Shown: positions 11,167 to 56,452, counted from the first letter of the whole stretch. The stretch is DNA of 63,676 bases, filler included, from Octopus bimaculoides (GCF_001194135.2; 9 parts of 8 records of this genome joined end to end with filler, not necessarily neighbours in it); one strand, 5' to 3'. The notes: generated by a model from the sequence alone, not told the origin. Numbers and translations are program-made.

Positions 11167-11200
11167 TTTAACGTTTCGAGCTACGCTCTTCAACAGAAAG
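11167..11200 (-). ncRNA. Minimal type I hammerhead-like motif (core CUGUUGA)
   Basis: uuu-CUGUUGA-a-GAGC(gua)GCUC-GAAACGUU-aaa; same family as 33704. Confidence 0.55.
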
Positions 11201-12983
11201 AAATAAGGAGAAGAACAAGGAGAAAAACACGGAGAAAAAAAATTTGAATGTTGTGGTCAGCGATCTATCATGGCGACTGCCGGACAGAAAGTTCACACAT
11301 GTATATCAGTGTGTGCACATCTATACATACATCCATATATATGAGGGTACCAAAAAGTAACGTATTTTCAAGCTAATAGTCTGAAGTCATAAACGGAAAG
11401 ACGGAGATTCTGAAGAACCCCACGTTAAATAGACTCTACCAGTAATTCAAATATTTAACCTTGTGACACTGTCTCACACGGATTTTACATAGGGAATGCG
11501 TGTCTGTGGAGTACTCAGCCACTTTGCACGTTGTTTAAATGAGTAAGTACAGTTAATTGAACAGCTGGAAGCTTCAAGTTTCGTGTCAGTTTCCTTGTCA
11601 GCTTCATTTTCACAATAAAATAGATTCTACTTTTAGTCATACCAGCAGTTGTTATCTTAAAACTTGCTCTAAAATAACATTATTTTACCATTTGTTTCTG
11701 TGACCGTGTGTGTATGTATGTGTGTGTGTTTGTGTGTGTGTTTGTGTGTGTGTTTGTGTGCGTGTATATATATATATATATATATATATATATATATATA
11801 TATATATATATATATATNNNNNNNNNNNNNNNNNNNNNNNNNNNNNNNNNNNNNNNNNNNNNNNNNNNNNNNNNNNNNNNNNNNNNNNNNNNNNNNNNNN
11901 NNNNNNNNNNNNNNNNNNNNNNNNNNNNNNNNNNNNNNNNNNNNNNNNNNNNNNNNNNNNNNNNNNNNNNNNNNNNNNNNNNNNNNNNNNNNNNNNNNNN
12001 NNNNNNNNNNNNNNNNNNNNNNNNNNNNNNNNNNNNNNNNNNNNNNNNNNNNNNNNNNNNNNNNNNNNNNNNNNNNNNNNNNNNNNNNNNNNNNNNNNNN
12101 NNNNNNNNNNNNNNNNNNNNNNNNNNNNNNNNNNNNNNNNNNNNNNNNNNNNNNNNNNNNNNNNNNNNNNNNNNNAGAGAGAGAGAGAGAGAGAGAGAGA
12201 GAGAGAGAGAGAGAGAGAGAGAGAGAGAAAGTGCTACTATCAATGTGTACTGAAAAATCTCACGAATTTTGTAATGTAATTTTTGTAAATTTATTTTCAT
12301 ATCACATTTTGAATATATTCAAATTATATCTAAATTGATCATATTATATCATTATAATAAATTATTTATATTTATATTTCAATTACAATATAGTGTTCCA
12401 CTTAGTTTACATATTTCGGTACACACAGTATAGTGTACATAATAATAGTATAGGCACAGTAACCTACAAAACTACAACTACTACTACAACAACCACGACA
12501 GTAACAACAACAGCAAGAATAACAACTATAAACACTACACGAGTAGAAAGGTAATTCTTGAAGTTAACATAGAGATAGTGGAGGAAACGATTCCATGTAT
12601 TTTGCACATGAAGATATTGTCTTAGTAGTTTAGATGAAGTAATTATACATATATGTGCTCCAACATGACCACAGCCGCATAACTTAAAAGAGTAACAGAG
12701 AGTAAAAGAGAGTATATATATACATATATACATATAATAATAATAATAATATTAGGGACAAAATCCAAAATTACAGGTAAAAAACTCAATTAAAATCAAT
12801 TTATAAAAAATTAAAATTAAATTGAGCCTTATAGATAAAGTATATATAAAATATATATATATGTATATATATATATATATATATATATATATATATATAT
12901 ATATATATATATATATATATATATATACATATGTGCATGTGTGTGTGTGTGTGTCTGTGTGTGTGTGTTTGTGTAGTAAAAAG

Positions 12984-13310
12984 CCTGAAATTTTGGGCCA
13001 GTCGATTACATCAACCCCAGTACTTGACTGGTACTTATTTTATCGATACCGAGAGGATGGAAAGCAAAGTTGTCCTCGGCGGAATTTGAACTCAGAACGT
13101 AGCGACAAATGAAATACAGCTAAGCATTTCTAACGGTTCTGCCATCGCTCCGCCTTTGTTTGTATAGTAATAATTCTAGGGAAGGCACAAGACCCCCAAA
13201 TTTGGGGCAAGGGTTCAAGATGATTACATCGATCCCAGTGCGTAACTGGTACTTATTCAATCGATTTCGAAAGGATCGAAAGCAAAGTCGACCTCGGCGG
13301 AATTGTTTGT
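12984..13310 (-). mobile_element. Two tandem partial SINE family D copies
   Basis: Repeated cggcggaatttgaactcagaacg and actggtacttatt blocks. Confidence 0.75.
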
Positions 13311-13355
13311 GTAGTAATAATGAAGTGGAACCAAATAGGGATATTCTGAAGTCAT

Positions 13356-13430
13356 TTAATACGTACGTTTCAGATCTGCGTAATATATAATAGGAAATGC
13401 ATCCATTACGTAAGACCTTCCTCAGTTGAA
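13356..13430 (-). ncRNA. Type I hammerhead motif (CUGAGGA core, palindromic helix III)
   Basis: uucaa-CUGAGGA-AGGUCU...AGAUCU-GAA-ACGUACGU-A-uuaaa. Confidence 0.65.
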
Positions 13431-13454
13431 TCATTTCAAAATGATCTGAAATAC

Positions 13455-13532
13455 TTTCACTGAGGAATGTTTATTGTAATGGATACATTTCCTATTATAT
13501 ATATCGCGCAGACCTGAAACGTACGTATTAAA
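13455..13532 (+). ncRNA. Second, more degenerate hammerhead motif of the same palindrome
   Basis: CUGAGGA at 13460; AGACCU-GAAACGUACGUA at 13510-13527; the 5' strand of helix II is mutated. Confidence 0.45.
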
Positions 13533-13584
13533 TGATTGCAAAAGAGTGCTGTTTGGTTTGACTCGGTGCCAGTACAGAGTAGCC

Positions 13585-53242: not shown

Positions 53243-54744
53243 TATCCAATCCCTTAAAATCTTCACCCCTGTGGTCAGTAAACTAGTAACTTAAACTCTT
53301 CAAATATGTAGACAATAAACCAAACCTTTATGACCAATAAATAGTTTAAACTCTTCAGTTCTGTGTGGTTTATGGTCTGATATGTTAATTCTATGTCTTG
53401 TATAGATAACTACATAAAGTTAAAATACATGCAATCAGTTCCGTTCACAGTTTACTTATGGAGTAATCATTATATAAAAGAAACAGCTTAATTAAGAGGC
53501 TACTACATTGTAGCTAATCATAAATAGGTTCCACAGAATAGGGAAAATGAACTCTGCCAAACCAATTTGCAATATATATTGCAACCATGCAAAAATACAT
53601 ATTTTGGTGATACCCCTAAAATCCAGTGTGTTATGGAACTCACTGGTCACTCTTTAATGAACTCTGCAAGAGTTGTTAAAAACAGTACATTAAATACAGT
53701 CACATAGTTATGTAACACAATTTCAGTTCCAAGTCAATATAAACTGCTATTTTATTCTTAGAGAATAAAATGTTTAAGACTCTATAAGCATAGGTCAGAG
53801 ATACATTGTGACAACTAAAAATCCAAGAAATAGGTTTTAGATTTTAAATGAGTTAGTAAAAAAATAAGACACTTAATCTATCTGTTGGTTGGTTGTTAGC
53901 TATTAGTATTTGTTTAGTTATCTCCATACCAATAAATCTGGTCAAGAAGAGCTGACCAAAATGACTACTCAATAACTTCAAGAGGATCATATCACAACTA
54001 ACGTATCCGAAACTCTAGAATTACTTGTGTTTACAATCTCTAGTTGACCCTCCGATATACTTTCCACCATCATGAAGAATAAGAACAATATAACAATAAC
54101 AAGCTATTATAAGAGCTTTTATGCAGTTGCTTTGCAGCTAGAAAAAGCAGCCAAGTCTTCATTAAATCATGTCTTACAGTGTTAAAAAAGCAGAAGGATA
54201 TATTAGATACTTTAGTCCTATATGTAAAACAAAAATGAGCTTCAAGTATTAATATCAAGAAGAACAATAAGAATATTAAATATTCATTTAATAAGAAATA
54301 AGAAAATTTAATAATAAGAAAATAATAAGAAAATCTAAAACAAAATAATCTTGGCAAGGAATAAGTCCATATATAGTTTTTGCAATTTAAAGTAGATGAA
54401 GGATAATTTCACATGGGATAAAATACTAACCTATCTCAAGAAATCTGGTACTTTATCTTGGATAGCTAGATAAATTGAGGCAATGTAAGATATAGAGCCC
54501 ATGGATATAAAAACACCTGCAGTGGAACTGAACTCATCCAATTCTCTATACACTCAACTTTAACAACTAATAACAACAACAATAATAACAAAACAACAAC
54601 ACAACTGACAGTAGTTCTTACTTAGGTGTAAATGCTCACATTTTTAGGGGAGAGGAAAAGTTGTGTTGCTCATGCTTTCTTAAAGGTCCTTTGCTGCATA
54701 AATCAATTCAAAGTGAGAATTGAATGCATACTGTAAATCAAGTT

Positions 54745-54910
54745 CAGTGATATTGAGCCTAGTACTTGACCAGTACTTTATTTTATTGGCTCCAAAGAAA
54801 TGAAAAGCAAAGTTCACCTCAAGCAAAATTTGAACTCAAATTCTAAAGAGCTATAACAAATACTGCAAAGTATTTCTCTGATACTCTAATGATTCTGCAG
54901 CTCACTGCCC
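54745..54910 (-). mobile_element. SINE family D, degraded
   Basis: tttgaactcaaa...gattctgcagctc. Confidence 0.55.
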
Positions 54911-54914
54911 TCAA

Positions 54915-56220
54915 CAACAATAATAATGTTTTCTTTATTAACCACTAAGGGTTCACAAAAACATTGGGGATGGTACAGGACAATACAATGTGGAGTTACA
55001 TAAAAGGCATGTAAAAATTTTTAAAAATAGTGACAATATAAAATTACAACAATGAATTATTCCTAAAAGTGGGAGACTTCCTAGGGCTGTTTCTTTGGAC
55101 CCCACAAAACTATGGTTGCCCTGATCACTAGGACAAGTGCCCTCTCCACATCAACCTCCTTCAACCTACAGGTGCATGCTTAGAGTAGGCCCATGCACTC
55201 AGGCCATTCTTGCAACATTCACCCACCTCTTAACAAATTTGCTGAGAGGTAGCACTCCCCTCTCTACTCTCATTTTCCTTCTTAAGTGAAACTTGAAAAA
55301 GTTGATGAGGGCTTGGCCAAAGAGAAAAGTATCTGTCTTCAGCCCTTTTAATTTGATCCACCACACAACCTCTTTTTCTTAGATCATCAGGCAAAGAAGC
55401 ACTGCCATTCCCAGCTAAAGGAAGGTGACAGGATGATCTTCACAATGCAATGGATTCAGCTGATAACCAAATTCATCCTACATGTGACAGCAGATGTTCA
55501 ACATAAACCCACAACTAAGGCAATACTCAGGCACTGGATGAGAGTGTGCAGAACAATTTCATCACTCTGCACACATCTTGGACAAGCCTAGCAGATGGCA
55601 CTTCCATATATCTGTAGAGCTGTTACCGAACTAGAAATGCACTACCAGGCCAAGGATTTCTGGAAATTATCCATAGGCCCCAGCCTGAAAGTTTTCTGTA
55701 ATAGACTGGCTAGTTGATTCTCATCAACGCCCAAAGTCTGCCCAAAAATGTCGCACTTGCCCTACCACTAACCCTCTATAAAATGCCAGAGTTGAACTTC
55801 CACTGACTGCATTGTCCGACTGACAGAGGACTCTGAGTGCCTGACAATGCTCTAGGTGTCAGGTGCCCTGTATTGGTCTATGCTAGATCTAGGTCTGCCG
55901 CTCAGTCAAAGAGACAACCCTCTGACAAACAGCAACCACACCTACTCACCATCAAGGAAGCACTGGAGATGCAACAGCCCTTGGTACATGCCTGCACACC
56001 AGCAGCCATAGCATGCTCAGCACCCCCTCCCAATTCAGCAGGTATGGACAGCAAATGTAGTGCTTGGCCAATGGAATACTTCTGCTCCACAGAAAGTGAA
56101 AGAGTAAGCACCCCATTTTGGTCACACATAAACTGGGGCAAGGCAGAACAGTCAGGCAGTACTAAATAATGGAGGCAATGTAAGCATTCACCACCTCTGC
56201 TCAACCTTTCAGGGATATCT
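54915..56220 (-). mobile_element. Degraded Tx1/L1-clade LINE 3' portion
   Basis: Minus frame TLGVDENQL...GPMDNFQKSLAW*C (zf-RVT-like region); AATAAA near 54934. Confidence 0.7.
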
Positions 56221-56299
56221 TTCTTTCAGCCCGTTTCTGGGTGAGATGAGCTACCCTGCTCATCCCTCATCCCAGTTCTTCTCCACCTGAAAATCCAGA

Positions 56300-56450
56300 C
56301 CAATGGCCATTTCGGAGGTACACCACTGTATTTCAAAACACAATAGAGTGTAAACTTTGTATGTGTGTTTACCCTGACGAGGGGGTCATCACCAGTTTAC
56401 ACTCTATTGTGTTTTGAAATACAGTGGTGTACCTCCGAAATGGCCATTGG
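56300..56450. repeat. Perfect 57-bp inverted repeat with 37-bp spacer
   Basis: 56300-56356 is the exact reverse complement of 56394-56450. Confidence 0.95.
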
Positions 56451-56452
56451 TA
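56370..56452 (+). ncRNA. Type I hammerhead ribozyme, canonical core
   Basis: UACC-CUGACGA-GGGGGU...ACCUCC-GAA-AUGGCCAU-U-GGUA; predicted cleavage after 56448. Confidence 0.75.

What the first reader, a model, noticed from the sequence alone, without database searches (positions are those of the whole stretch)
11167..56452. Window-wide constellation of type I hammerhead ribozyme motifs from several repeat families
About a dozen motifs (11167, 13356, 13455, 20549, 24589, 24753, 27753, 27935, 28860, 33704, 38875, 56370) share the layout helix I - core - helix II - GAA - helix III - UH - helix I. In most of them helix III is a self-complementary palindrome (ACGU, AUAU, ACGUACGU, AUGGCCAU, AUCUAGAU). 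This is seen in the sequence. It is established that such dimer-cleaving type I hammerheads occur in Penelope-like element (PLE) pLTRs and non-autonomous retrozymes. My inference is that this genome has several non-coding, ribozyme-bearing PLE-derived retroelement families, here at roughly one motif per 5 kb. Two GIY-YIG PLE remnants in the same window show that candidate helper lineages exist.
Basis: partly seen in the sequence, partly recalled or inferred. Interest (0 to 1): 0.75.

Follow-up and report, generated by a model that had tools for sequence, protein, structure and literature searches.

The report
Hammerhead-bearing ends of Penelope retrotransposons
The dozen motifs are real but mostly decayed hammerhead-ribozyme sequences at the broken-off ends of several Penelope-type jumping-gene families, an arrangement already known in animals; one family is instead a protein-free unit of about 480 bases that likely borrows the Penelope enzyme, and self-cutting is untested.

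Summary
All 12 motifs are present, in 9 repeat families, 10 insertions and 5 unlinked stretches. Only 2 pass a strict descriptor; genome-wide one motif class gives 8,692 matches against 8 for the control. The layout is the minimal hammerhead of Penelope-like elements (PLEs; PMC4209133). Five families (D, E, F, H, A') continue upstream into PLE coding sequence, so most motifs are 5'-truncated PLE ends, not retrozymes. A, B and C stay unlinked. Family G (28860) is an ORF-less, circularly permuted 473-502-bp unit inserted with PLE geometry. Density in unselected DNA is 1 per 20 kb for these families, not 1 per 5 kb. Extras: family F has a tRNA-like head where 26 of 38 arms start; families A and A' spread with non-canonical cores (A6U 1,350 against 46 canonical exact copies). 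RNA reads were inconclusive. The scan noted the tRNA-headed PLE and permuted units before, on other DNA. New members of a known kind.

The parts
11080..11215 (-). Family A stub; motif 11167-11199 with A6U core (CUGUUGA), 4-bp helix II, ACGU palindrome, 3-bp helix I
13311..13441 (-). Family B, inverted arm; motif 13355-13430, canonical core, A10.1-U11.1, 8-nt palindrome, helix I damaged
13443..13626 (+). Family B, main arm of the same insertion; motif 13455-13532, helices I and II damaged
20516..20990 (-). Family C stub between microsatellites; motif 20548-20654, long helix II, position 17 is G in this copy
22607..23777 (+). Broken PLE ORF end (thumb, CxCX5C linker, GIY-YIG); Hydra-like by motif; body of family E
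23778..25019 (+). Family E 3' UTR and terminal repeat; motif 24755-24869, decayed (G10.1 and palindrome lost)
24528..24667 (+). Family D stub nested in the (TTA)n tract of the E element; intact motif 24586-24630 with U3-A8 core, 7-bp helix I, 6-bp helix II, AUAU palindrome; young family
27716..28030 (.). Family F head-to-head insertion joined in the (AAT)n tract; motifs 27753-27796 (-) and 27935-27979 (+), helix II damaged in both; tRNA-like head absent from this copy
28619..28985 (-). Family G main arm; motif 28856-28904 with the 3' half deleted; ORF-less permuted unit
28984..29160 (+). Family G inverted arm; keeps the AUCUAGAU palindrome and helix I 3' strand (28988-29009), lacks the core
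30771..31227 (+). CA-rich 3' UTR of an A'-type element; its hammerhead would lie in the N gap 31228-31904 (inferred)
   Evidence: 81.8% over 247 bp to L284
31905..32182 (-). Neptune-like GIY-YIG remnant (family I); relatives carry their own canonical hammerhead about 330 bp after the stop; here that part would lie in the N gap (inferred)
33560..33831 (+). Family A stub; motif 33704-33739 with A6U core (CUGUCGA), palindrome broken in this copy
38275..39012 (+). Family A' long stub with CA-rich UTR; motif 38878-38906 with U4C core and 1-bp helix I; young family
56298..57311 (+). Family H: short inverted arm, then intact canonical motif 56370-56452 (8-nt palindrome) and long 3' part; terminal repeat of a Hydra-like PLE

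Best explanation
The motifs are minimal type I hammerheads in the terminal repeats of at least five coding Penelope-like retrotransposon families, left as short, mostly decayed 3' stubs, plus one ORF-less permuted unit (G) that is likely copied by the same enzymes. Shown: family membership, shared layout on unrelated sequences, links to RT/GIY-YIG coding sequence, head-to-head arms, the optional tail, the permuted G unit. Inferred from PMC11167929 and PMC8557442: the PLE protein cuts AT-rich DNA and starts reverse transcription at two nearby internal RNA sites, usually stopping early, which gives stubs, mirror-image arms and a tail on one arm. The hammerhead is predicted to work only as a dimer through its palindromic helix III, in tandem precursor RNA or with the protein's help; lone stubs and opposite-strand pairs would not cleave in cis. 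Cleavage is likely optional for spread, since A and A' amplified with damaged cores. Most short F copies likely come from short transcripts started at the tRNA-like head.
For: Layout in 9 of 9 families scored (A, A', B-F, H, I) and in G: palindromic helix III in all, extra A after position 9 in A, A', D, F, I, U3-A8 in 30 of 30 D copies; these are the features described in PMC4209133. Coding links: F, RT plus GIY-YIG in L053 (RVT_1 E 1.1e-8), head pattern after the stop in 27 of 30 and hammerhead pattern in 22 of 30 ORF-end loci, repeat-ORF-repeat in L442, L444, L451; H, endonuclease 225-270 bp upstream in 6 of 30 loci; E, window ORF 85-88% identical in L228 and L209 with a collinear UTR; D, RT upstream in L142, L150, L145; A', RT thumb upstream in L371 and the same CA-rich UTR after the ORF in 4 of 5 more loci. 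Head-to-head arms in B 20/55, C 10/55, D 10/30, E 9/30, F 42/70, G 9/36, H 6/30 loci (overlapping loci not merged). One tailed and one untailed arm in 32 of 44 F pairs. G: sequence 3' of the motif returns to the sequence 5' of it; more-than-unit copies in 3 of 38 loci.
Against: No ORF link for A, B, C despite upstream walks. The D and A' links cross N gaps, none of the five extra A' loci reaches the hammerhead, and D's RT piece scores only E 0.036 in Pfam. A and A' show 0 of 40 and 0 of 30 head-to-head arms, unlike the others. G fits the strict one-long-one-short rule in only 6 of 18 pairs, has an extra A before G12 in the 17 aligned copies, and its count of pairs changed on both sides (3) is matched by 193 of 500 shuffles, although cells (14; 0 of 500) and score (1 of 500) exceed them. 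No cleavage was measured. Loci are best hits to window copies, so intact fractions are biased. Clades were assigned by motif, without a tree.
Confidence: 0.85

Rival explanations
1. All families are independent non-coding retrozymes that spread through self-cleaved RNA circles with PLEs as helpers.
For: True in structure for G (circular fold z about -3.1 for two units). B and C have two fixed 3' ends and no ORF found. Most F copies are short and start at one site.
Against: Five families run into coding sequence. Only G of 9 families is permuted. Same-strand pairs of two full motifs within 1.1 kb: 1 in A, 3 in F, none in seven families; retrozymes are defined as tandem units.
Confidence: 0.1
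2. The hammerhead is an active, needed step for every family, and A6U, U4C and the extra A of G are tolerated variants rescued by the PLE protein or by metal ions.
For: The fold is kept across unrelated families, which implies past selection. PAc's hammerhead cleaves when protein is added. U4C keeps enough activity for a viroid and A6C works with Mn2+.
Against: PAc core mutants insert normally in vitro. A' has a 1-bp helix I in copies 98% identical to their majority. Changes at A6 give low activity.
Confidence: 0.3
3. The motifs are chance matches in AT-rich, repeat-rich DNA.
For: With one core mismatch allowed, the unselected sample gives 3 hits against 3-6 in shuffles; four of five monomer folds tested have weak z-scores.
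Against: 8,692 against 8; 15 profile hits against 0; the same layout on ten unrelated family sequences.
Confidence: 0.01
4. The pile-up of F 5' ends is a reverse-transcriptase stall or a Pol II start site, not a Pol III start.
For: A short palindrome sits at the head. ARAGORN (0 genes in 8 loci) and Rfam do not call the head a tRNA. D. virilis Penelope starts in its terminal repeat from an internal promoter.
Against: Ends fall at the 5' edge of the tRNA-like block, not its 3' edge; box A- and box B-like motifs lie at tRNA spacing (consensus recalled); T4+ runs number 14 against 67 expected in 54.6 kb of 30 related ORF copies, while D, E, H and I show about the expected number.
Confidence: 0.35

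Closest known systems
Minimal hammerheads (min-HHR) in the terminal repeats of metazoan PLEs (Cervera and de la Pena 2014, PMC4209133; main text read, supplement not seen)
   Same: Type I layout, extra base between 9 and 10.1, G10.1-C11.1, palindromic helix III, U3-A8 variant, many families per genome, mostly single motifs from truncated PLEs, opposite-strand pairs 100-700 bp apart.
   Different: Family-wide A6U (A) and U4C (A') cores, A10.1-U11.1 (B), an extra A before G12 (G). Counts are higher than the 2,000-9,000 reported there, but were made by other methods. Cephalopods are not named in the text read.
PAc, Poseidon PLE of the green anole (PMC11167929; parts 1-2 of 4 read)
   Same: Family F also has its hammerhead inside the first codons of the ORF and an optional tail of about 27 bp.
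   Different: F has a tRNA-like head about 90 bp before the start codon, where most arms begin; none is described for PAc in the parts read.
Animal non-LTR retrozymes (PMC7229834, passages; bioRxiv 10.64898/2026.07.22.740005, parts 1-3 of 5) and non-autonomous Chlamys elements such as MRC1 (PMC8557442, passages)
   Same: Family G is ORF-less, low in GC, one hammerhead per unit, head-to-tail continuity.
   Different: Unit of 473-502 bp, slightly above the 150-450 bp quoted; minimal-type motif; no two-hammerhead tandem in 36 loci; inserted with inverted arms; not seen as RNA.
Schistosome SINE-like hammerhead elements with a Pol III promoter (review PMC6765202, passages) and Pol III-type TRIMs Cassandra and Helenus (PMC10886601, passages)
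   Same: A small-RNA-like promoter block next to a hammerhead, or inside a terminal repeat.
   Different: In F the block sits in the terminal repeat of a protein-coding PLE; those elements are non-coding.

Membership tests
min-HHR of PLEs | Core CUGANGA or U3-A8, then GAA, A15.1-U16.1, H17 | tested here: met
   Majority of B, C, D, E, F, H; 8 of 20 in I. Not met by A (0 of 30) and A' (1 of 30).
min-HHR of PLEs | Palindromic helix III, helices I and II paired | tested here: met
   exceptions: helix I is 1 bp in A' and 2 bp in I.
min-HHR of PLEs | Lies in the terminal repeat of an RT plus GIY-YIG element | tested here: met
   D, E, F, H, A', I; D and A' across N gaps.
min-HHR of PLEs | Same link for families A, B, C | tested here: inconclusive
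   Upstream walks ended in low-complexity DNA or gaps.
min-HHR of PLEs | Cleavage as dimer or with protein | not testable with these tools
   No assay; RNA reads were unstranded and showed no end pile-ups.
EN+ PLE insertion | 5' truncation, inverted 5' arm, optional tail on one end | tested here: met
   inverted arm not seen in A (0 of 40) or A' (0 of 30).
PLE clades (Poseidon, Neptune, Hydra) | RT phylogeny | not tested
   Assigned by linker motifs only, from PMC8557442 passages: F without the Zn-finger linker; I and D with a cysteine linker, A' by likeness to I; E and H with CxCX5C plus cysteine and CxH motifs.
Non-LTR retrozyme (family G) | No ORF, low GC, head-to-tail unit with one hammerhead | tested here: met
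   473-502 bp, 29-31% GC, longest stop-free run 61 codons in the L535 unit; permutation.
Non-LTR retrozyme (family G) | Tandem of two or more units each with a hammerhead | tested here: not met
   0 of 36 loci; at most about 1.4 units. The sample is small.
Non-LTR retrozyme (family G) | Expressed as linear and circular RNA | tested here: inconclusive
   72-140 reads per run, none over the hammerhead; library type and species match are uncertain.
Non-LTR retrozyme (other eight families) | Permuted or tandem ORF-less unit | tested here: not met
Pol III (tRNA-type) promoter in F | Box A and box B at tRNA spacing, starts at the head, no T4+ terminators | tested here: inconclusive
   Motifs by eye (consensus recalled); 26 of 38 arms start within 12 nt of the head; T-run deficit; no tRNA call; no direct test.

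The most novel reading that the evidence does not exclude
Family F is a protein-coding retrotransposon transcribed by RNA polymerase III from a tRNA-derived head in its terminal repeat, so that every stub with the head is also a ready-made SINE; and the same genome shows in vivo that hammerhead cleavage is dispensable, because families with damaged cores (A6U; U4C with a 1-bp helix I) spread to hundreds or thousands of copies while an ORF-less permuted unit (G) rides the same enzymes.
Probability: 0.3. Interest if true: 0.7.

Novelty: new member of a known kind. Interest (0 to 1): 0.38.

Why it matters
The kind is known, so the constellation itself is ordinary. Its use is as a test set for an open question, what the PLE hammerhead is for: one genome holds a young family with an intact motif (D), a young family with a damaged one (A'), a coding element with a candidate Pol III promoter (F) and an ORF-less permuted unit with PLE insertion marks (G). 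Cleavage and transposition assays on these natural copies would separate 'needed', 'protein-assisted' and 'passenger'. A Pol III-made mRNA would be unusual.

Tried and rejected
Rfam scan of the window: swamped by microsatellite miRNA matches, one sub-threshold hammerhead. The repeat finder: swamped by microsatellites and N runs. Loose descriptor with one core mismatch: no excess in unselected DNA. Upstream walks for A, B (the query turned out to be the 3' extension of an inverted arm) and C: no ORF. An RT fragment beside G in L245 was rejected as a link, because G sits inside that other element. Permutation test negative for eight families; its near-core hits there were other repeats or one same-strand neighbour. 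ARAGORN and Rfam do not call the F head a tRNA. Run search: no RNA holder listed on record. Three raw RNA runs of one study laid on F and G: unstranded, about 6% of each run read, no end pile-ups, 79-82% of F reads run on into unlike sequence, G barely covered; no verdict on cleavage or circles, and the runs' species may differ from G000. Monomer folds do not give the active fold except helices I and II of D, as expected for dimer-type motifs. Other GAAAC and core-like words in the window (15 checked) gave no further type I motif. Sequence look-up of G in earlier findings gave nothing. Literature searches listed no paper on octopus PLE hammerheads or a tRNA-type promoter in a PLE; Repbase and Dfam were not available, and supplements of PMC8557442, PMC4209133 and the bioRxiv preprint were not seen and may list such families.
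Full report
Setting. The window is a pack of 9 stretches. The 12 motifs lie in 5 of them, on contigs C24, C6, C19, C10 and C3 of G000. I take the animal to be an octopus from its repeat landscape; that label is recalled and comes from no call.

Observation. Every coordinate holds helix I, core, helix II, GAA, helix III, position 17, helix I. A strict descriptor passes 2 of 12 copies, against 0-1 hits in 10 shuffles. 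Rfam lists one sub-threshold Hammerhead_1 match in the 150 of 207 rows shown. The signal is in the families. Own-genome searches gave 30 loci per query and sorted the motifs into A (11167, 33704), A' (38875), B (13356/13455), C (20549), D (24589), E (24753), F (27753/27935), G (28860) and H (56370). A tenth family, I, belongs to the remnant at 31905-32182. Profiles of the ten find 15 hits in the window and 17 in 346,216 unselected bases, with none at 20 bits or more in either shuffle. That is 1 per 20 kb, range 13-35 kb, for these families only. One canonical pattern occurs 8,692 times against 8 for its control; most of the first 100 listed are family F.

Structure. The family majorities share the layout on unrelated sequences: palindromes ACGU (A, A', F, I), AUAU (D), ACGUACGU (B), ACGAUCGU (C), ACGUGCGU (E, with G-U pairs), AUGGCCAU (H). 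Fully intact copies among those scored: A 7/30, A' 26/30, B 4/30, C 6/30, D 27/30, E 11/30, F 12/30, H 8/29, I 4/20 (family core counted as intact; best hits, so biased). In 17 complete G motifs 91.7% of cells pair; helix I and helix III each show a double change, cells with double changes exceed all 500 shuffles, but the number of such pairs (3) does not (193 of 500), and related sequences can beat this control. This is the minimal hammerhead described for PLE terminal repeats, including the U3-A8 variant, single motifs from truncated elements and opposite-strand pairs (PMC4209133, main text read).

What carries them. F: L053 has RT and GIY-YIG directly upstream (RVT_1 E 1.1e-8). In 30 loci found with the ORF end, a head pattern follows the stop in 27 and a hammerhead pattern in 22. 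L442, L444 and L451 show repeat then ORF, with the reading frame starting about 35 bp before the core and running through it, as in PAc (PMC11167929, parts 1-2 of 4). H: endonuclease ends 225-270 bp upstream in 6 of 30 loci. E: the window's ORF remnant at 22607-23777 is 85-88% identical to ORF ends upstream of E in L228 and L209, and its UTR is collinear with theirs; the D stub sits in its (TTA)n tract. D: RT upstream in three loci across N gaps. A': RT thumb 2.8 kb upstream in L371 across gaps, and the same CA-rich UTR after the ORF in 4 of the 5 loci fetched from 40 matches. By linker motifs (PMC8557442 passages) F is Poseidon-like, D, A' and I Neptune-like, E and H Hydra-like; no tree was built. 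A, B and C were not linked.

Insertion marks. Head-to-head arms occur in seven families (B 20/55, C 10/55, D 10/30, E 9/30, F 42/70, G 9/36, H 6/30 loci) and not in A (0/40) or A' (0/30) (overlapping loci not merged). In F, 32 of 44 pairs have one tailed and one untailed arm, which fits the two start sites of PAc and the one-ended tail of PMC8557442. Same-strand pairs of two full motifs within 1.1 kb are rare: 1 in A, 3 in F. Lone stubs and opposite-strand pairs therefore would not form the cis dimer (inference).

Family G. Sequence 262-444 bp after the core in L240 is the sequence just before the core in five other loci, the window copy included; no other family shows this. L535, L540 and L542 hold more than one unit plus an inverted arm (3 of 38 loci, 8 of them chosen with the junction query). 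The unit is 473-502 bp, 29-31% GC, with no stop-free run above 61 codons in the L535 unit; two units fold as circles at z about -3.1 against 20 shuffles. It works like a retrozyme or a non-autonomous PLE (PMC7229834 passages; bioRxiv 10.64898/2026.07.22.740005 parts 1-3 of 5; MRC1). It fails the tandem test (0 of 36), fits the strict two-end rule in 6 of 18 pairs and was not seen as RNA. A circular template is one reading; a tandem template is another.

Family F head. In 40 loci taken by the hammerhead pattern alone from the start of contig C1 (F-type rows), 38 arms hold the tRNA-like part: 26 start within 12 nt of its 5' edge, 8 inside it and 4 further up, 2 of these in the ORF. Of the 30 arms that reach the edge, about 12% would stop there at the rate seen inside. 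Box A- and box B-like motifs sit at tRNA spacing (consensus recalled), but ARAGORN and Rfam call no tRNA. Runs of four or more T number 14 against 67 expected in 54.6 kb of 30 ORF copies; the copies share one ancestor, so this is roughly one observation with P near 0.05; D, E, H and I show about the expected number. I found the head; earlier notes on other genomes report the same, and one of them led me to the T-run test and to PMC11167929. The window's F pair lacks the head.

Non-canonical cores. Family A has A6U: 1,350 exact copies of a 27-letter motif against 46 with A6. A' has U4C in 28 of 30 copies, a 1-bp helix I, 98% identity to its majority and 146 exact copies. Changes at A6 and U4C lower activity in tested hammerheads (PMC3088659, PMC7151607, passages; A6U itself is not tested in those passages). 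PAc core mutants still insert in vitro. The likeliest reading is that cleavage is optional for spread; rescue by protein or metal is not excluded. D, with an intact U3-A8 motif, is as young (98%; 85 exact copies).

RNA. Three unstranded runs of one study showed no end pile-ups on F or G; this decides nothing.

Literature seen besides those above: PMC6765202 (passages), PMC10886601 (passages), PMC6962438 (passages; 235 Hammerhead_1 loci in giant squid), PMC13282606 (passages; recently active Penelope families in an octopus, no mention of ribozymes). Searches listed no paper on these families; repeat databases and the supplements were not seen.

Verdict. Real, many times above chance, and of a known kind. 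Novelty: new members of a known kind. Interest 0.38.

Noticed in passing
   Followed up: no
window 27753-27796 and 27935-27979: Both arms of the F insertion share the same several changes in helix II relative to the family majority: either a damaged template was copied twice or the arms were homogenised after insertion.
   Followed up: no
window 62647-62748 (-): A diverged fragment of a G-like element without the hammerhead core (46.8 bits).
   Followed up: partly
window 21600-22400 (+): Broken mariner-type transposase (Pfam Transposase_1, E 7.4e-5 and 2.1e-4, below cut-off).
   Followed up: partly
window 47008-50135 (+), 61300-62542 (-), 7573-7956 (+), 43193-45376 (-), 32240-33300 (-): Fragments that read like endonuclease and RT pieces of LINE elements in translation; the label is by eye.
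   Followed up: no
window 25994-26398 (-): An open frame that reads like a membrane-protein exon, resembling 'rolling stone' proteins (recalled, not tested).
   Followed up: no
L042, L047, L324, L328 (unselected sample): Older relatives of A and A', several with a canonical core and a 4-bp helix I, which suggests that A6U and U4C arose later in this lineage.
   Followed up: partly
families B and C, e.g. L471-L500 and L501-L529: Two fixed 3' ends about 135-150 bp apart, a much longer optional tail than the 30-40 bp described for PLEs.
   Followed up: partly
G000:C3:15840947-15843645 and C9371:2770-5008: Inverted D motifs 2.2-2.7 kb apart: candidates for long, young D copies.
   Followed up: no
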